From: a phage
Reading direction: 5' to 3' (one strand)
Assembly (NCBI GenBank): GCA_020279385.1
Contig: GCA_020279385.1_4762.1
DNA: 64,000 nt
Shown piece by piece: positions 2 to 51,183 of this stretch; the first letter of the stretch is position 1, and every line of letters starts with the position of its first letter. Position numbers and translations under genes: made by a program. The notes beneath the pieces are model-generated. The model did no database searches and was not told the origin of the DNA. It saw only the letters and a program-made list of their open reading frames with translations.

Positions 2-2065
2 AACTTTGTTGCATATCATCATGTTTCTGGTTATGACAATCAATTTTGTGCCATTAATACAAGTGATGACACTTATGATATCTATGCATACTACTCCGAA
101 TTTACTAATATGGTAATGGCTGAATATCAAGCGTCCAGCGATGTTAATTTAACTGTGCTTGACCGTCCTGAATATGTAGGAGAAAAACCTGTAGCTGATC
201 ATATCTATGATGCATATACAATACGCTCTTTTAACAGTTTCAGTAACCGTGGAACATTAAATTTTGCTGGCAACCATCAAGGACAATATGACATTGAGCA
301 TATGAACGAACAACCGACAAATGCTAAAAAGATGTTACGTCGGTTTAGAAGCTCTGCCATCGCGACAATCTGGCATGAAACCGTTGATGACCAGAATTAT
401 CGTCTTGCTACTGGCGGTACAGATTCAGGTCAACAATTATTGTTGTCTTCTGGGACCGGTTTGCATATTCGTAGATTGACCATCGATGGTGGCTTAGGTT
501 CCGGTTCTAATGCTGGTATTGATATTCGTCGAGGACCAAACGAATCAAGCCATTTTAATTTTATGGATTATCGCACTGGTCAAGATGTTCGTAATGGCTG
601 GTTTGGTTTTGGTGATTTGACGACCAAAGATTTTATTTGGTGGAACGATAACGGTCAAAACTCGATAAACTTGATCGAAAATGGTGAATTACATATTACT
701 GGCGGTAAAGGCCAGAAAATTGTAATGAATAGCGAAGTTGCATTATCTGAAAATGCTCGTTTGGCTGTTAAAGGTGGCAATTATGGATTAATTTTTAGAA
801 ATGATGGCGTTGGCTTCCATATTCTTACCACAGACCTCGGTGATTCATTTGGACCGTGGAATACTCGTAGACCATTCAGCTATAATTTTGCTGACGGTGG
901 ATTATATTTAGGTGGTACTAAAACTGCTCGTTGTTTGCATCTTGGAATTGATGGTAGCACTCGTCTTGAAGACAACCTGTTCTTTAAAGCTGGTTCTCGT
1001 CAATCTATGGACTATATGGAACTCGTCCATTGGGGGGCAAGCAATACAGGTCGAAATAACGTTTTAAGTCTTCGTGACTCAAAAGGATTTTTAGCAGAAT
1101 TTGAACGATTGGGTGATAATACCATTAAAAACTCCTTCTTTGGTAAACTTAAAGTTAATCGTGGTTCTGACGCAATCGTCATGAATGCCGAAACGGGTGA
1201 TTCGTCTATATATTTGCTGGGTACTTGTGCTGATAATAACAACTGGTATATCGGTAAAGGTGGTGCTGATAATGGATTAGCGTTCTATAGCTATGCTACT
1301 AATGCTGCTATCAATATTACAAACGCGGGTGATATCGCGCTAAGTCCAAAAGGCGTCGAAATGACTCATGTCAATAACGTTCGATTTTATGTTCATGGTG
1401 AACGTTGGACTGCTAGCCAATCTGGAGGTTGGAACGACCAATGGAGATTAGAAGCGCCGATATTTGTTGACCACGGCTATGTTGGACCAGACAGTTATTA
1501 TCCGATTCTTAAAGGAAGAAGTTTGATCACCAATCAAGGGTATACAACTGCCGTCGATTTTGGTATGCGTCGTGTTCCTCGAAATTGGGGGCAAGCAATT
1601 ATTCGTGTTGGATCTGCGGAGAACTCGCCAGCGGCTGGTCATCCTCAAGCTGTATTCGAGTTCCATCATGATGGTACTTTTTACTGTCCTTCCAATGGCA
1701 ACTTTAACGATGTTTATATTCGTTCTGATGACCGTCTTAAGATTAATAAAGAAGAGTTAGAAAACGGAGCACTTGAAAAAGTATGCCGTCTGAAAGTTTA
1801 TACTTACGATAAAGTTAAGTCTATTAAAGATCGTAGTGTGATTAAACGTGAAGCTGGTATTATTGCTCAGGATCTTGAAAAAGAATTGCCGGAAGCTGTA
1901 TCTAAGGTTGAAGTTGATGGATCTGCTGTTCTGACAATTTCTAATTCGGCAGTGAATGCTCTTTTAATTAAGGCTATTCAGGAAATGAGTGAAGAAATTA
2001 AAGAATTGAAAACTCCTTTCTTTACTAAAATTGCTCGCAAAATTAGTAAATATTTTAAATTCTAA
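2..2065 (+). CDS. 37: Long tail fiber distal subunit gp37, 5'-truncated at window edge, with C-terminal intramolecular chaperone (S74-like auto-cleaving) domain
   Basis: Frame open from window start to stop at 2065; C-terminal ~100 aa carry the intramolecular chaperone signature (SDDRLKINKEEL...IIAQDLEKELPEAV...NALLIKAIQEM); followed by gp38 and holin as in T2/T4. Confidence 0.8.
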   Translation, partial: NFVAYHHVSGYDNQFCAINTSDDTYDIYAYYSEFTNMVMAEYQASSDVNLTVLDRPEYVGEKPVADHIYDAYTIRSFNSFSNRGTLNFAGNHQGQYDIEHMNEQPTNAKKMLRRFRSSAIATIWHETVDDQNYRLATGGTDSGQQLLLSSGTGLHIRRLTIDGGLGSGSNAGIDIRRGPNESSHFNFMDYRTGQDVRNGWFGFGDLTTKDFIWWNDNGQNSINLIENGELHITGGKGQKIVMNSEVALSENARLAVKGGNYGLIFRNDGVGFHILTTDLGDSFGPWNTRRPFSYNFADGGLYLGGTKTARCLHLGIDGSTRLEDNLFFKAGSRQSMDYMELVHWGASNTGRNNVLSLRDSKGFLAEFERLGDNTIKNSFFGKLKVNRGSDAIVMNAETGDSSIYLLGTCADNNNWYIGKGGADNGLAFYSYATNAAINITNAGDIALSPKGVEMTHVNNVRFYVHGERWTASQSGGWNDQWRLEAPIFVDHGYVGPDSYYPILKGRSLITNQGYTTAVDFGMRRVPRNWGQAIIRVGSAENSPAAGHPQAVFEFHHDGTFYCPSNGNFNDVYIRSDDRLKINKEELENGALEKVCRLKVYTYDKVKSIKDRSVIKREAGIIAQDLEKELPEAVSKVEVDGSAVLTISNSAVNALLIKAIQEMSEEIKELKTPFFTKIARKISKYFKF

Positions 2066-2071
2066 CAACAA

Positions 2072-2089
2072 GGGGGCAACGCCCCCTTT
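2072..2089 (+). terminator. Short GC hairpin between gp37 and gp38 (weak terminator or stability element)
   Basis: GGGGGC-AAC-GCCCCC then TTT; only a short U-tract. Confidence 0.35.
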
Positions 2090-2101
2090 GGAGTATAAAT
2101 T

Positions 2102-2884
2102 ATGGCAGTAGTTGGTGTTCCTGGTTGGATTGGAAGTTCAGCCGCAAATGAAACAGGGCAACGATGGATGAGTCAAGCGGCTGGTCAATTAAGATTGGGT
2201 GTTCCTTGCTGGATGAGTCAATTTTCAGGTCGCTCGCGAGAAATTATTCATACACTTGGCGCAGACCATAACTTCAATGGTCAGTGGTTCCGTGATAGAT
2301 GCTTTGAGGCAGGTAGTACACCTATAGTGTTTAATATTACAGGTGATTTGGTATCATATTCTAAAGATGTTCCTTTATTCTTTATGTACGGAGATACACC
2401 GAATGAATATGTTCAGTTGAATATACATGGCGTAGCGATGTATGGTCGTGGCGGGAATGGCGGTAGCAAGGGTCCTGGATCAGCCGGGGGGCATTGTATT
2501 CAAAATGATATTGGTGGGAGACTAAGAATTAATAATGGCGGAGCTATTGCTGGTGGCGGTGGCGGTGGCGGTGGCGGGTATTATTCTCCTTTTCCACAAA
2601 TGAGATTAACCTTTGGCGGTGGCGGTGGGCGTCCGTTTGGTGCGCCGGGCGGATCTATTAATATGCAATCAGGCGCAACTGCTGGTACTCTTTATGCGCC
2701 CGGATCGGGGTCCGTGAACGGTATCTATAATGGCGGAAGCGGTGGTGAGGTAGGTGCTGCTGGAGGTAGATGTAATATTCGTGGTCAAGGTTCTGAATAT
2801 AATGGCGGTGATTCTGGATATGCTGTTATAGGGTCTTCTCCAACGTGGCAAAATCGCGGAGCTATTTACGGACCGGCTGTTTAG
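2102..2884 (+). CDS. 38: gp38 receptor-binding adhesin (T2-type) with glycine-rich motifs
   Basis: N-terminus [13 protein letters not shown]...[22 protein letters not shown] matches T2/T6 gp38 from memory; poly-Gly runs ([20 protein letters not shown]) separated by variable segments; SD GGAG upstream. Confidence 0.85.
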
Positions 2885-3879: not shown

Positions 3880-3885
3880 CTTAAA

Positions 3886-3917
3886 GGGGAAGCCTTTCGG
3901 CTTCCCCTTCTTTTTTT
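3886..3917 (+). terminator. Rho-independent terminator after holin t
   Basis: GGGGAAGCC-TTTC-GGCTTCCCC hairpin followed by TTCTTTTTTT. Confidence 0.8.
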
Positions 3918-4164
3918 ATTGACGCATAGACGCGCCTGAATCGCATTTTGACGCTGTGTGATGAAAACAGGTAGCGTACCAGTCATCGGCTTGTTTGTCT
4001 TCGTCAGAAAACGCGTAATTTCGTTGTACGCCGTTTTCTACTTTGACCAGTGCAATAGCTGTTTCTGGAAGATCAATCAATCGGACAAAATCGCCATCTT
4101 CCCATTCTACACGAGCAATATCATAGCCCATCTCAAAGTATACAATCGCTTGTTCTAATTTCAT
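3916..4164 (-). CDS. Hypothetical protein (82 aa)
   Basis: ORF on early strand; ATGA overlap with upstream gene. Confidence 0.55.
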   Translation of the reverse strand: MKLEQAIVYFEMGYDIARVEWEDGDFVRLIDLPETAIALVKVENGVQRNYAFSDEDKQADDWYATCFHHTASKCDSGASMRQ

Positions 4165-5431: not shown

Positions 5432-5719
5432 TTATTTTCGGTTGTGGTCACGATATGTTTTAAAATATCCCTCGTACCACGGTAAAACATCTGGATTTTT
5501 ACCACTATACAGACCTTTAACCATCATGTCAATAAGACCGTCCGGTGTTTGATAATTACCAGCTTTTATAAGCTCTCTGATTAAAATTTCCTTGTATATG
5601 TCTTTCGGATCTTCGTAATCAACTTGTATTGTGGTTGTTGTCCCGCTTAATTTGGTTTCTGGAGTATCTTGCATCGCCTTCCACCAATCTTTTGTAATCT
5701 TCATGCTGTTGAATTTCAT
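5432..5719 (-). CDS. Hypothetical protein (95 aa)
   Basis: ATG at 5719 just after stop of upstream gene; track ORF starts from GTG at 5731. Confidence 0.5.
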   Translation of the reverse strand: MKFNSMKITKDWWKAMQDTPETKLSGTTTTIQVDYEDPKDIYKEILIRELIKAGNYQTPDGLIDMMVKGLYSGKNPDVLPWYEGYFKTYRDHNRK

Positions 5720-5721
5720 AA

Positions 5722-6489
5722 TTATCTGCACCCGTACTGGTCAACATAGATTTTAGAGTGTCCTTGTTCGCGGACTTCTAAGCGAATGATATCGCTATCC
5801 TGTTCACGCCACACATAATACTTTTTATTTTCTTTCCAGCCGCTAAAAACGATCATTCCGTTGTCATCAACTACTCGTTTTGTGTTTGCCTTATGAACAT
5901 CATTATTGTCGATGTATGTAAAATGGATAATCTGACCATCTTTTACTTTCAGAGTCAATTCACCTGGATTGTATTCTTTATAAAAAGGCTGTTCTTTCGG
6001 CTTAGTGTTTGCTCCGTCGATATTTTTCCATTTAAAGTGAGATTCACATTGCAAGGTAAACTCGCTGGTTTGTGGTTTCTTTTCTTTCTTCGGTTGCTCT
6101 ACCACTTTTTCTTCCTGTTTCGGTTGTTCTTCTTCAACCTTCGCAGAAGTCTCTGAATCGCTTTCTGACGCTGTTTCTTCTTTAGGTAATACATTCATCA
6201 AGTTTTGGATTTGAGCGTTATATACAGCCTCCAGTGGCTGAATCTGCCCGATATTGATCATTGTATCACGAACGGTTTTATTCCAGTTGCGTTGCTCTTG
6301 TTTCAGAGACGGATCAATCTTAACAGCCTTAACATATACTTCATGAAGTTTAGAATCCAGTGCTGAGATTGACTCATTAGCACAAATAAACTTCTCTGAT
6401 TTGGTAGTAGCTTTAGCGCAATCAAAGGACGCAGCATTAGCACCGAAAGCAGTAGCGGAAAGAACGATAGCAGCGATAATGTTTTTCAT
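5722..6489 (-). CDS. Secreted DUF1311/LprI-like domain protein (255 aa) with signal peptide
   Basis: N-terminal signal peptide MKNIIAAIVLSATAFGANA; DUF1311-like pattern FDCAKA...EKFICANE...LDSKL...VY...EQRNW; acidic/Lys-rich linker; C-terminal domain. Confidence 0.7.
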   Translation of the reverse strand: MKNIIAAIVLSATAFGANAASFDCAKATTKSEKFICANESISALDSKLHEVYVKAVKIDPSLKQEQRNWNKTVRDTMINIGQIQPLEAVYNAQIQNLMNVLPKEETASESDSETSAKVEEEQPKQEEKVVEQPKKEKKPQTSEFTLQCESHFKWKNIDGANTKPKEQPFYKEYNPGELTLKVKDGQIIHFTYIDNNDVHKANTKRVVDDNGMIVFSGWKENKKYYVWREQDSDIIRLEVREQGHSKIYVDQYGCR

Positions 6490-6517
6490 AATATATTCCT
6501 TAATGTTTTGTCTTGAT

Positions 6518-6552
6518 GGGAGTATCTTACTACTCCCTTAATCCGGTGTCAA
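6518..6552 (-). promoter_or_regulatory. Early sigma70-type promoter with stem-loop (PeSL-like) upstream of the LprI-like gene
   Basis: rc reads TTGACA-17nt-TAAGAT; inverted repeat GGGAGTA/TACTCCC flanks the -10. Confidence 0.65.
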
Positions 6553-7026: not shown

Positions 7027-7061
7027 GGGAGTATCTTACTACCGACGACCTTTGGCGTCAA
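7027..7061 (-). promoter_or_regulatory. Early sigma70-type promoter
   Basis: rc TTGACG-17nt-TAAGAT followed by ACTCCC as in other cassettes. Confidence 0.6.
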
Positions 7062-23957: not shown

Positions 23958-24161
23958 TTATAGCTCAAATTTCATGAAAGTTCCTACACTTTCATTTTCA
24001 TTCTCTCCGTTTTCATCTAAGCCAAATTTGTAGACACTGCCATCTGGCGATGTGTAAGAGAATACACGAAAACGGCCTACCGAATCAAGTTCTGTAAATT
24101 CATATTCTTTTCCGGCTTCAAAAAGTGCATATGTGCTTTTAAGACATTTCATCGTAATCAT
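23958..24161 (-). CDS. Hypothetical protein (67 aa)
   Basis: ATGA coupling to upstream small ORF. Confidence 0.55.
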   Translation of the reverse strand: MITMKCLKSTYALFEAGKEYEFTELDSVGRFRVFSYTSPDGSVYKFGLDENGENENESVGTFMKFEL

Positions 24162-24316
24162 TTAAGCGCCACCGACAACAGAATGAGAACTACACCAACA
24201 TACATTGTGATCTCGGATAACTTTTCTGTTTTTGTTTTGTGTCCAGATAATCCGAAAACAACAACACCGACAATAGCGGACAGCAAGCCAACGATAAACA
24301 TGATGATACTAAGCAC
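24158..24316 (-). CDS. Possible small membrane protein (~50 aa)
   Basis: rc reads (V)LSIIMFIVGLLSAIVGVVVFGLSGHK...; GTG or ATG start; not in ORF track. Confidence 0.3.
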   Translation of the reverse strand: MLSIIMFIVGLLSAIVGVVVFGLSGHKTKTEKLSEITMYVGVVLILLSVALK

Positions 24317-50214: not shown

Positions 50215-50244
50215 AATATAATCCTCTCGTTGTTAAGTGGGAGT

Positions 50245-50273
50245 ATCTTACTACTCCCGTTTCATCATGTCAA
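50245..50273 (-). promoter_or_regulatory. Early promoter with inverted repeat around -10 (PeSL-like)
   Basis: rc TTGACA-17nt-TAAGAT; GGGAGTA/TACTCCC arms. Confidence 0.65.
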
Positions 50274-51123: not shown

Positions 51124-51154
51124 TGTTGATTCTCCTTCTTGATTAGATGGGAGT

Positions 51155-51183
51155 ATTTTACTACTCCCATTTCTTATTGTCAA
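51155..51183 (-). promoter_or_regulatory. Early promoter with inverted repeat around -10 (PeSL-like)
   Basis: rc TTGACA-17nt-TAAAAT; GGGAGTA/TACTCCC arms. Confidence 0.65.

What the first reader, a model, noticed from the sequence alone, without database searches (positions are those of the whole stretch)
5722..6489. Early-expressed secreted DUF1311/LprI-like protein
The 255-aa ORF has a clear signal peptide, an N-terminal region with the DUF1311/LprI (lysozyme-inhibitor-like) Cys/Trp pattern, an acidic Lys-rich linker and a C-terminal domain, and is driven by its own early promoter. T4 protects infected cells from lysis from without using the periplasmic lysozyme inhibitor spackle; an unrelated periplasmic lysozyme-inhibitor-fold protein here could be an analogous superinfection-exclusion or envelope-protection factor.
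Basis: partly seen in the sequence, partly recalled or inferred. Interest (0 to 1): 0.65.

Follow-up and report, generated by a model that had tools for sequence, protein, structure and literature searches.

The report
Polymorphic secreted LprI-like phage protein
An early gene of an RB49-like (T4-type) coliphage encodes a periplasm-targeted protein with an almost invariant DUF1311/LprI head and a beta-barrel tail that is swapped among deeply diverged versions; an E. coli prophage has captured the same gene, which suggests a factor acting in conflicts at the cell envelope (most likely superinfection exclusion or immunity), but its function is untested.

Summary
Window 5722-6489 (minus strand) is a real 255-aa gene, the ortholog of RB49p262. 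It has a Sec signal peptide (ANA|AS), a DUF1311/LprI domain above Pfam's threshold, a disordered acidic/Lys linker and a C-terminal domain. It sits behind a sigma70-type promoter plus stem-loop (PeSL) cassette.

New points:
- The C-domain is a confidently predicted small up-and-down beta-barrel (pLDDT 92) with no relatives outside this family. It is not demonstrably MliC-like.
- The N-module is under strong purifying selection (dN/dS 0.17 or below, 0-5 aa changes). The C-domain exists as deeply diverged cassettes, exchanged precisely between the linker and the stop codon.
- The gene is also the terminal cargo gene of a prophage inserted in hicB, in 26 of 5426 complete E. coli genomes. A decaying stub of the Krischvirus downstream gene shows transfer from virulent to temperate phage.
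- The C-domain type does not track the fibre tip, the holin or the genus's near-invariant gp5 tail lysozyme.

The spackle-like reading is plausible but unproven. "LprI" does not establish lysozyme inhibition. The best model is an autonomous periplasmic exclusion/immunity protein with a variable specificity domain (confidence about 0.4).

The parts
6524..6552 (-). Sigma70-type promoter: -35 TTGACA (6552-6547), 17-nt spacer, -10 TAAGAT (6529-6524), with an AT-rich tract upstream
   Evidence: 10 of 12 matches. One search shows the same -35, hairpin, -10, SD and ATG layout at four sites in the window. PeSL definition from PMC2839356.
6518..6537 (-). PeSL stem-loop GGGAGTA-gtaaga-TACTCCC, overlapping the -10 hexamer. 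Probable attenuator of read-through and a recombination site.
   Evidence: 4 copies against 0.01 expected.: -13 kcal/mol, z = -3.3. The attenuator and recombination roles are taken from PMC2839356 and were not tested here.
6497..6501 (-). Shine-Dalgarno AAGGA, 7 nt before the ATG
   Evidence: Sequence
5722..6489 (-). Complete CDS, 255 aa plus stop; ortholog of RB49p262 (NP_891833) and UniProt Q7Y3G7
   Evidence: phrog_14799 full length, E 2.6e-122
6433..6489 (-). Sec signal peptide, aa 1-19, predicted cleavage ANA|AS
   Evidence: Read from the sequence. pLDDT below 50 for residues 1-20.
6181..6432 (-). DUF1311/LprI-type helical module, aa 20-103 (Pfam match aa 24-76). It carries the FDCxKAxxxxEKxIC Cys pair and a QRxWxxxxRD motif, and lacks the second Cys pair typical of the family.
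6073..6180 (-). Disordered acidic/Lys-rich linker, aa 104-139. It varies in length between alleles and contains the 5' recombination junction.
   Evidence: Breakpoints at query positions 782-826.
5725..6072 (-). C-terminal 9-strand up-and-down beta-barrel, aa 140-255, bracketed by C148 and C254. This copy is the 'type A' allele.
   Evidence: pLDDT 92.3. (fold searches). (only C, G and C invariant across all types).
5724..6087 (-). Replaceable cassette. There is no nucleotide similarity to RB49, ECD7 or JSE here, although the flanks are 96-97% identical upstream and 75-94% downstream.
   Evidence: identity ends at query position 813-826 and resumes at 1178-1182, i.e. at the stop codon
5788..5877 (-). 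Most variable stretch within class-I C-domains, aa 205-234 (strands b4 to b6 and their loops, with indels)
   Evidence: Per-column entropy on alignment A5. Treating it as a binding surface is inference.
5432..5719 (-). Downstream gene (RB49p261 homolog, phrog_15915), starting 2 nt after the stop codon. Its first ~20 codons travelled with the cassette into the prophage.

Best explanation
The gene encodes a soluble periplasmic protein, probably stabilised by disulfides, that is made straight after infection from a PeSL early promoter. I propose it is an autonomous envelope-level exclusion or immunity factor. It would bind and neutralise something that arrives in the periplasm of an already infected or lysogenised cell. 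The most likely targets are the wall-penetrating apparatus (tail lysozyme or spike) or other periplasm-acting proteins of superinfecting phages.

The almost invariant DUF1311/LprI head would contact a conserved partner. Candidates are a peptidoglycan hydrolase such as the genus's equally invariant gp5 lysozyme, or a host wall enzyme. The beta-barrel tail, held on a flexible linker, would be the specificity module. It exists as several ancient allelic cassettes shuffled by homologous recombination between the linker and the start of the downstream gene.

Shown here: the gene and its layout; DUF1311 membership; the barrel prediction; the selection pattern; the exact cassette boundaries; presence in both a virulent and a temperate phage lineage; and the direction of transfer.

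Inferred: periplasmic location, early timing, disulfides, binding function, and the exclusion/immunity role.
For: 1. Targeting and timing. AXA signal peptide without a lipobox. Cys pairs at C24/C36 and C148/C254. PeSL promoter (PMC2839356).

2. Autonomy. Only the segment from -6 of the ATG to about +75 nt past the stop is shared with the prophage, at 94-97% nt identity in the N-module. There it is the last gene before the hicB attachment junction in all three chromosomes inspected. It has its own promoter-like and terminator-like sites. It is present in 26 of 5426 complete E. coli genomes. So it needs no other Krischvirus gene, and it is useful both to an infecting lytic phage and to a lysogen. 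Superinfection exclusion is the classic function with that property.

3. Conflict signature. In the N-module dS is 0.09-0.20 but dN is 0-0.02. Between C-domain types dS is saturated and dN is 0.36-1.5. Within type A, dS is only 0.048, below that of the N-module, which indicates recent cassette spread. The cassette boundaries are sharp. Related types occur in both lifestyles: A/A', D/D', and E in a 175-kb Krischvirus-like contig and in prophages.

4. DUF1311 proteins have experimental or contextual links to neutralising periplasm-acting wall-targeting toxins: Etsi4 (PMC12981562), Pantoea orphan immunity genes (PMC9796082) and WHIX effector neighbours (PMC12135965).

5. Secreted LprI-type head plus variable C-domain proteins recur in other T4-like phages of Klebsiella and Aeromonas.

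6. The nearest viral structural neighbours of the barrel are small phage proteins; two, from Erwinia jumbo phages, are named 'Lipoprotein', the others are unnamed.
Against: - No functional data exist for any member, and no partner was identified.
- The LprI domain alone has not been shown to inhibit lysozyme, and ScwA does not.
- The C-domain type does not co-vary with the fibre tip or holin or with gp5, which is at least 98.8% identical in all 60 Krischvirus-type records listed. The polymorphism is therefore not an arms race with the genus's own tail lysozyme.
- Marfa carries both spackle and an LprI-type gene.
- There are no PADLOC or NCBIfam hits.
- The N-domain model is only moderately confident (pLDDT about 70).
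- Class-II C-domains (JSE type) are not demonstrably homologous to class I (hhalign probability 4%).
Confidence: 0.4

Rival explanations
1. Immunity against bacterial weapons. The protein would neutralise periplasm-acting peptidoglycan hydrolases delivered by T6SS or bacteriocins (lysozyme-like effectors, pesticin-like toxins). That would benefit the lysogen and, incidentally, keep a lytically infected cell intact until burst. The C-domain alleles would match different effectors.
For: DUF1311 proteins are T6SS immunity proteins: Etsi4 rescues Etse4 toxicity (PMC12981562), and there are contextual cases in Pantoea and next to WHIX effectors. The gene occupies a moron position in a prophage. Its polymorphism resembles that of orphan-immunity repertoires.
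Against: No effector or T6SS gene lies next to any copy. The gene originates in, and is nearly universal in, a strictly virulent genus, where a roughly 30-minute infection gains little from T6SS immunity. The closest relatives are confined to Krischvirus and one prophage family.
Confidence: 0.15
2. Modulator of host cell-wall enzymes, as for ScwA. The LprI head would bind or stabilise endogenous lytic transglycosylases or other PG hydrolases. This would adjust wall integrity during infection, for example preventing premature lysis or supporting lysis inhibition.
For: Salmonella ScwA is a periplasmic, disulfide-bonded LprI-domain protein that controls MltD levels and, when overproduced, causes lysis (PMC7933661). 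The strongly conserved head fits a conserved host partner. The gene lies 1.8 kb from holin t.
Against: This does not explain the ancient cassette polymorphism of the C-domain. The holin is 98% identical across C-domain types. The ScwA architecture is different: its LprI domain is C-terminal, it has four Cys, and it has no barrel.
Confidence: 0.12
3. Exclusion by acting on a host envelope component rather than on the incoming phage. The variable barrel would bind the periplasmic face of an outer-membrane receptor or a surface-polysaccharide assembly protein, as T5 Llp does with FhuA. This would block adsorption or DNA-entry triggering.
For: Precedent: Llp (PMC9586334 and a 2026 preprint, both listed). 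Two of the barrel's structural neighbours are phage proteins named 'Lipoprotein'. Variable alleles could match variable host surface machinery.
Against: The protein is soluble, not a lipoprotein. The window phage and UPWr_E1 share the type-A barrel (2 aa differences) but have different fibre tips and adhesin arrangements, so the allele is not coupled to receptor specificity in this n = 2 comparison.
Confidence: 0.12
4. A canonical c-type lysozyme inhibitor built like M. tuberculosis LprI (LprI domain plus MliC barrel). The C-terminal barrel would insert into the lysozyme active site.
Confidence: 0.05

Closest known systems
M. tuberculosis lipoprotein LprI (Rv1541c; Pfam LprI + MliC)
   Same: An exported protein with an N-terminal DUF1311/LprI domain followed by a small beta-barrel. 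The head belongs to the same Pfam family.
   Different: LprI is a lipoprotein; this protein has a signal-peptidase-I site. The phage barrel has no MliC sequence signal or motifs. The phage head lacks the second Cys pair. There is a long disordered linker and a cassette-polymorphic tail.
T4 Spackle (gp61.3), periplasmic inhibitor of the gp5 tail lysozyme
   Same: A small early-expressed secreted phage protein. Proposed role: protecting the infected cell's wall against superinfecting phage (PMC7677548, listed).
[not shown]
   Same: Signal peptide plus DUF1311 domain, periplasmic, neutralising wall-targeting toxins.
   Different: Those are single-domain proteins encoded next to their effector. 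This one has an extra barrel, no neighbouring effector, and lives in phage genomes.
Salmonella ScwA
   Same: Soluble periplasmic LprI-domain protein, dependent on disulfides and horizontally acquired.
   Different: In ScwA the LprI domain is at the C-terminus of a 275-aa helical protein. ScwA regulates MltD levels and has no known role in phage biology.
PeSL-flanked ORFan cassettes of RB49/phi1 hyperplastic regions (Arbiol et al. 2010)
   Same: The gene sits in the t-to-gene-52 hyperplastic region behind a canonical PeSL.
   Different: The exchange unit is not the PeSL-to-PeSL ORF but an intragenic cassette, running from the linker to the stop codon. This gene is not discussed in that paper.
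Prophage morons and lysogenic-conversion exclusion genes (e.g. T5 Llp, phi80/T1 Cor, P22 SieA)
   Same: A stand-alone transcription unit at the prophage end, encoding an envelope-targeted product.
   Different: No homology to any of these. The protein is soluble rather than membrane-bound or a lipoprotein. It is shared at about 95% nt identity with a virulent T4-type genus.

Membership tests
LprI / DUF1311 (Pfam PF07007) | HMM score at or above the gathering threshold | tested here: met
   26 bits against a cut-off of 22, E 1.2e-5, covering model positions 1-71 of 106. All 21 homologs match.
LprI / DUF1311 (Pfam PF07007) | Reciprocal retrieval of family members by the domain's own profile | tested here: met
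   The N-module profile A4 retrieves 917 proteins at E 1e-3 or better. The 120 best listed are 57-183 aa and mostly carry PF07007.
LprI / DUF1311 (Pfam PF07007) | Helical-bundle fold like PDB 3gi7 | tested here: met
   [not shown]
LprI / DUF1311 (Pfam PF07007) | Conserved cysteines (four in ScwA-type members) | tested here: inconclusive
   The first pair, C24/C36, is present and invariant. The position after the W..RD motif is Thr, not Cys, so the second pair is absent, as in Marfa and CC2 (for the family statement).
LprI / DUF1311 (Pfam PF07007) | Lysozyme or PG-hydrolase inhibition | not testable with these tools
   A biochemical assay is needed. The literature attributes inhibition in Mtb LprI to its MliC domain.
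MliC/PliC lysozyme inhibitors (PF09864) | Sequence-profile match | tested here: not met
   No hit in any of 21 members at E up to 10. A C-domain profile against PDB sequences gives only spurious hits.
MliC/PliC lysozyme inhibitors (PF09864) | Eight-stranded barrel specifically similar to MliC/PliC structures | tested here: inconclusive
   [not shown]
MliC/PliC lysozyme inhibitors (PF09864) | Conserved active-site-inserting loop motifs | tested here: not met
   Only C148, G159 and C254 are invariant across types. The class-I invariant residues look like framework positions. The motif definition comes from my own knowledge of the MliC literature.
T4 Spackle (gp61.3) | Sequence homology to Sp | tested here: not met
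   tblastn of Marfa Sp against the window gives no hit to this ORF; the best hit is E 0.13, elsewhere.
T4 Spackle (gp61.3) | Binds and inhibits the gp5 lysozyme domain | not testable with these tools
   Indirect only: gp5 is at least 98.8% identical across all C-domain types. If gp5 is a target, it would have to be contacted by the invariant head.
PeSL regulatory cassette (RB49-type phages) | AT-rich tract, sigma70 -35/-10, GC-rich stem-loop, SD and start codon within about 80 nt, repeated in hyperplastic regions | tested here: met
   definition
T6SS immunity gene | Encoded adjacent to a cognate effector or inside a T6SS island | tested here: not met
   The neighbours are phage early ORFans or prophage terminase genes and the hicB junction.
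Prophage moron | Stand-alone unit at the prophage periphery with its own promoter and terminator and atypical composition | tested here: met
   It is the last gene before the truncated hicB in 3 of 3 chromosomes inspected. Promoter-like TTGAAA-16-TAAAGT and a terminator-like hairpin are present. The Krischvirus copy of the gene is 39% GC, below the ~51% typical of E. coli (from my own knowledge); the prophage copy's GC was not computed. Expression in lysogens was not tested.

The most novel reading that the evidence does not exclude
The gene defines a recombination-shuffled exclusion-specificity system shared between virulent T4-type phages and a temperate phage. The invariant DUF1311 head would be a generic effector that blocks wall penetration or DNA entry. 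Each barrel allele would recognise a different incoming phage component or bacterial toxin. This would create exclusion groups analogous to plasmid entry-exclusion or colicin-immunity types. The prophage copy would act both as a resident defence gene and as a reservoir from which infecting Krischviruses pick up new alleles, through the conserved head and the retained downstream stub.
Probability: 0.15. Interest if true: 0.8.

Novelty: new variant of a known kind. Interest (0 to 1): 0.55.

Why it matters
Superinfection exclusion in T4-type phages is understood mechanistically only for Spackle and Imm in T4 itself. RB49-like phages are common in therapy cocktails, and their early periplasmic functions are unknown.

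A secreted protein with a frozen head and ancient, swappable tails, moving between a strictly lytic genus and an E. coli prophage, offers two things:
- A tractable candidate for a new periplasmic exclusion/immunity mechanism.
- A clean natural example of intragenic cassette exchange and gene flow from lytic to temperate phage.

If the alleles set exclusion specificity, they would matter for cocktail design, because of phage-phage interference, and for predicting prophage-conferred resistance. The work would also give the large DUF1311 family, whose 'lysozyme inhibitor' name rests on weak evidence, a testable phage-encoded member.

Tried and rejected
- Relatives of the C-domain outside the family. 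phmmer against 1.8 billion representatives found only two long proteins matched over short stretches (E 1.7e-6 and 1.4e-4, 31% and 28% identity, not followed up). A class-I profile search found three short proteins (66-130 aa): one 99% identical, the others about 30%. No convincing relative outside the family was found.
- Coupling of barrel type to other loci. No association with the tail-fibre tip or gp38 (window versus UPWr_E1), holin T (98% identical across types) or gp5 (at least 98.8% identical in 60 records).
- Homology between class-I and class-II (JSE-type) tails. hhalign probability is 4%, so it is left open whether they share a fold. No structure jobs remained.
- Spackle in this phage. 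None was found in the window. The other ~100 kb of the genome was not available, so absence from the genus is not established.
- Defence and annotation libraries. PADLOC and NCBIfam gave nothing.
- GTDB species-representative scan. Only an irrelevant 28% hit.
- Unavailable resources. The afdb50 fold library was not available, and the Sethi 2016 LprI paper is not held, so its content is cited second-hand via PMC7933661.
- Paralogs in the window. None.

Full report
WHAT THE WINDOW IS

The region is 93-97% identical in nucleotides to RB49-like T4-type coliphages (genus Krischvirus). The finding's ORF lies on the minus strand (5722..6489, 255 aa). It is the ortholog of RB49p262, annotated 'hypothetical protein', in the hyperplastic early region between holin t and topoisomerase gene 52. 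PHROGs places it in phrog_14799, of unknown function.

CHECK OF THE OBSERVATION

- Signal peptide. The N-terminus MKNIIAAIVLSATAFGANA|AS is a textbook Sec signal peptide with an AXA site and no lipobox. This is read from the sequence, as no predictor was available.
- Linker. The 36-residue acidic/Lys linker is predicted disordered.
- Upstream region. The sequence reads AT-rich tract, TTGACA, 17 nt, TAAGAT, with the -10 hexamer inside the hairpin GGGAGTA/TACTCCC, then AAGGA and ATG. The hairpin folds at -13 kcal/mol, z = -3.3. The whole layout recurs at four sites in the window against 0.01 expected by chance. This is the 'promoter-early stem-loop' (PeSL) cassette shown experimentally in RB49 and phi1 to be a strong sigma70 promoter plus attenuator (PMC2839356). 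Early expression is thus well founded but inferred.
- Prior annotation. A weak DUF1311 match for RB49ORF260c, presumably this gene (the identity was not checked), was listed in 2006 (PMC1524935). UniProt and NCBI name homologs 'LprI-like'. The annotation itself is therefore not new.

THE C-TERMINAL DOMAIN

Modelled alone with 15 homologs, it gives pLDDT 92.3 and pTM 0.84. The model is a nine-strand up-and-down barrel with one short helix. The only residues invariant across all types are C148, G159 and C254, so a disulfide closing the first and last strands is likely. That disulfide is inference.

Search results for the domain:
- Sequence searches find essentially nothing outside the family: a single sequence against 1.8 billion representatives, a class-I profile and PDB sequences.
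- Foldseek against the PDB gives only weak lipocalin and FABP matches (best E 4e-3, TM at most 0.52).
- In the viral library, after RB49's own protein (TM 0.86), the best neighbours are small phage proteins; two, from Erwinia jumbo phages, are named 'Lipoprotein'.

This matters because M. tuberculosis LprI has the architecture LprI domain plus MliC barrel, and the MliC part is the experimentally sufficient lysozyme inhibitor (PMC7933661). The phage protein mimics that architecture. It shows no MliC profile signal and no conserved loop motif. I therefore class the tail as a generic calycin-like barrel, not an MliC member.

THE KEY NEW FEATURE: FROZEN HEAD, SWAPPED TAIL

Across 20 homolog clusters, residues 1 to about 125 are almost invariant. 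The tail falls to 10-57% identity.

Nei-Gojobori estimates:

| Region and comparison | dS | dN |
|---|---|---|
| Head, all comparisons | 0.09-0.20 | 0-0.02 (0-5 aa changes) |
| Tail, between types | saturated | 0.36-1.5 |
| Tail, within type A (window vs UPWr_E1 or an IMG/VR contig) | 0.048 | 0.007 |

The head values indicate strong purifying selection, not merely recent identity. The within-type tail dS is lower than that of the head attached to it, so the tail cassette has recently spread onto different head backgrounds.

blastn locates the junctions precisely. Against RB49, ECD7 and JSE, identity is 96-97% from the upstream gene through codon ~134-138 in the linker. It then vanishes and resumes at the stop codon (window 5723). 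The replaceable cassette is window 5724-6087.

At least five class-I types share 16 framework residues: A (this window), A', B (RB49, the majority), C (phi1, GEC-3S) and E. Their variation peaks in strands b4-b6 and the connecting loops (aa 205-234), where there are also indels. A class-II tail (JSE, P0017, P0019) shares only the first-strand motif F.Y.C...IDG and the terminal Cys (hhalign probability 4%).

SHARED WITH A TEMPERATE PHAGE, AND THE DIRECTION OF TRANSFER

The head-encoding DNA is 91-96% identical to a gene in 26 of 5426 complete E. coli chromosomes. In the three chromosomes inspected it is the last gene of the same prophage. It lies next to a gene I read as a small terminase subunit (annotated 'hypothetical protein'), directly abutting a truncated hicB. 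IMG/VR holds the same element as ~35-kb contigs with the gene at the contig end.

Homology with the Krischvirus starts 6 nt before the ATG. In the class-I prophage copies it extends about 75 nt past the stop. That extension encodes MKFNSMKITKDWWDAMKANH.... This is the first ~20 codons of the Krischvirus downstream gene, best matching the JSE allele at 92% over 61 nt. The stub is truncated after that point and carries an in-frame stop in one lineage. The downstream gene is intact in the virulent phage but only a decaying stub in the prophage. The cassette therefore moved from a Krischvirus-like phage into the temperate phage.

The prophage copy has its own promoter-like and terminator-like sites. 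Prophage copies themselves carry A', D' or E tails. Type E also occurs in a 175-kb Krischvirus-like contig between gene 52 and holin. Exchange across lifestyles has therefore been repeated. The conserved head (~380 nt) and the stub provide flanking homology. That last point is inference.

WIDER FAMILY

Secreted proteins with the same head motif (ASFDCxKAxxKxEKxIC...QRxW) and unrelated Cys-containing C-domains occur in other T4-like phages:
- Klebsiella Marfavirus-type phages, where the gene sits between primase gene 61 and dCTPase gene 56, about 2 kb from spackle.
- Aeromonas T4-like phages.
- A few other phages.

Head plus variable tail is therefore a recurring phage design, and it can coexist with spackle.

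TESTS OF SPECIFIC MECHANISTIC IDEAS

1. Coupling to the receptor-binding apparatus. The window phage and UPWr_E1 have tails differing at 2 residues but different distal-fibre tips (50% and 35% identity), and only the window has a gp38-type adhesin. There is no coupling, from this n = 2 comparison.
2. Coupling to the holin periplasmic domain. Holins are 98% identical across types A and B. There is no coupling.
3. Arms race with the genus's own tail lysozyme. gp5 is at least 98.8% identical in all 60 Krischvirus-type records listed, covering types A-D. The tail polymorphism does not track gp5. If gp5 is a target, the equally invariant head is the candidate contact.
4. Spackle in this phage. There is no homolog in the 64-kb window, including the canonical position upstream of gene 61. 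The rest of the genome was not available.
5. Known defence and annotation models. No hits.

INTERPRETATION

Five facts need a joint explanation:
- The protein is exported and made early.
- It needs no other phage gene.
- It is useful both to a lytic infection and to a lysogen.
- It has one module under strict constraint.
- It has one module maintained as ancient, recombining alleles.

These are best explained by a periplasmic binder that protects the occupied cell against something arriving from outside. I favour superinfection exclusion or protection from lysis-from-without (confidence about 0.4). Literature on DUF1311 proteins as neutralisers of periplasmic wall-targeting toxins makes a peptidoglycan-hydrolase target for the head reasonable. 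ScwA shows that the domain does not by itself imply lysozyme resistance.

The rivals cannot be excluded computationally and are scored individually: T6SS or bacteriocin immunity, ScwA-like control of host wall enzymes, receptor or surface masking, and a true MliC-type inhibitor.

NOVELTY AND SCORE

The gene and its weak DUF1311 label are known, and its function is not. I found no description of the intragenic cassette polymorphism, the barrel fold, or the virulent-to-temperate capture in the held literature. I rate it a new variant of a known kind: an exported DUF1311 immunity- or inhibitor-like protein with a novel polymorphic specificity domain in phages. Interest is 0.55: a specific, testable lead with a striking evolutionary signature but no functional evidence.

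Noticed in passing
window 3916-4164 (minus strand): An 82-aa early ORF next to the holin matches Pfam Tad2-like (Thoeris anti-defense 2, PF11195) at 28.4 bits against a cut-off of 25, E 2.4e-6. The precomputed annotation of a related Krischvirus contig shows the same family. It suggests this early gene string carries counter-defence cargo.
   Followed up: partly
window 6518-6537, 7027-7046, 50239-50258, 51149-51168 (minus strand): The same -35, hairpin (GGGAGTAGTAAGATACTCCC), -10, SD and ATG PeSL cassette precedes at least four genes in the window (0.01 copies expected by chance). It marks modular early-gene units in two separate hyperplastic regions.
   Followed up: partly
window 110-2884 (plus strand); compare L001 1-1345 and L022: The tail-fibre module is mosaic. 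This phage has a distal fibre C-terminus followed by a 260-aa gp38-type adhesin with Gly-rich motifs (2102-2884). RB49 has no gp38, and UPWr_E1 has a different fibre tip followed by three ~100-aa ORFs.
   Followed up: partly
window 24158-24316 (minus strand): A 52-aa ORF with two predicted transmembrane stretches (phrog_18360, unknown function) lies just upstream of primase gene 61. T4 carries spackle and the 61.x genes in that region. It may be another envelope-directed early protein.
   Followed up: no
window 3884-3909: A strong GC-rich hairpin (11 bp, 7 GC pairs) with a T-run sits between the convergent holin t (plus strand) and the minus-strand early gene string. It is a likely bidirectional terminator separating late from early transcription.
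   Followed up: no
L005 1-13330 (E. coli H2, NZ_CP028733.1); also L020, L021, L003: A ~35-kb prophage (annotated Rha-family regulator, terminase gpA-type subunit, portal and major capsid genes) is integrated into the 3' end of antitoxin gene hicB. That leaves hicA next to a truncated hicB in 26 of 5426 complete E. coli genomes. The consequences for the HicAB toxin-antitoxin pair are unknown.
   Followed up: partly
L018 2501-3259 (Klebsiella phage Marfa, CPT_Marfa_026) and L019 2474-3193 (Aeromonas phage CC2): Other T4-like phages encode secreted proteins with the same LprI-type head but unrelated, two-Cys C-terminal domains (read from the sequences; Marfa's looks helix-rich, neither was modelled). 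In Marfa the gene sits between primase and dCTPase, 2 kb from an annotated spackle gene.
   Followed up: partly
window 5504-5532 (minus strand): An 11-of-12 sigma70 consensus (TTGACA-17-TATAGT) lies inside the coding sequence of the downstream gene (5432-5719). It has no accompanying PeSL hairpin and could be an internal promoter for the next small ORFs.
   Followed up: no
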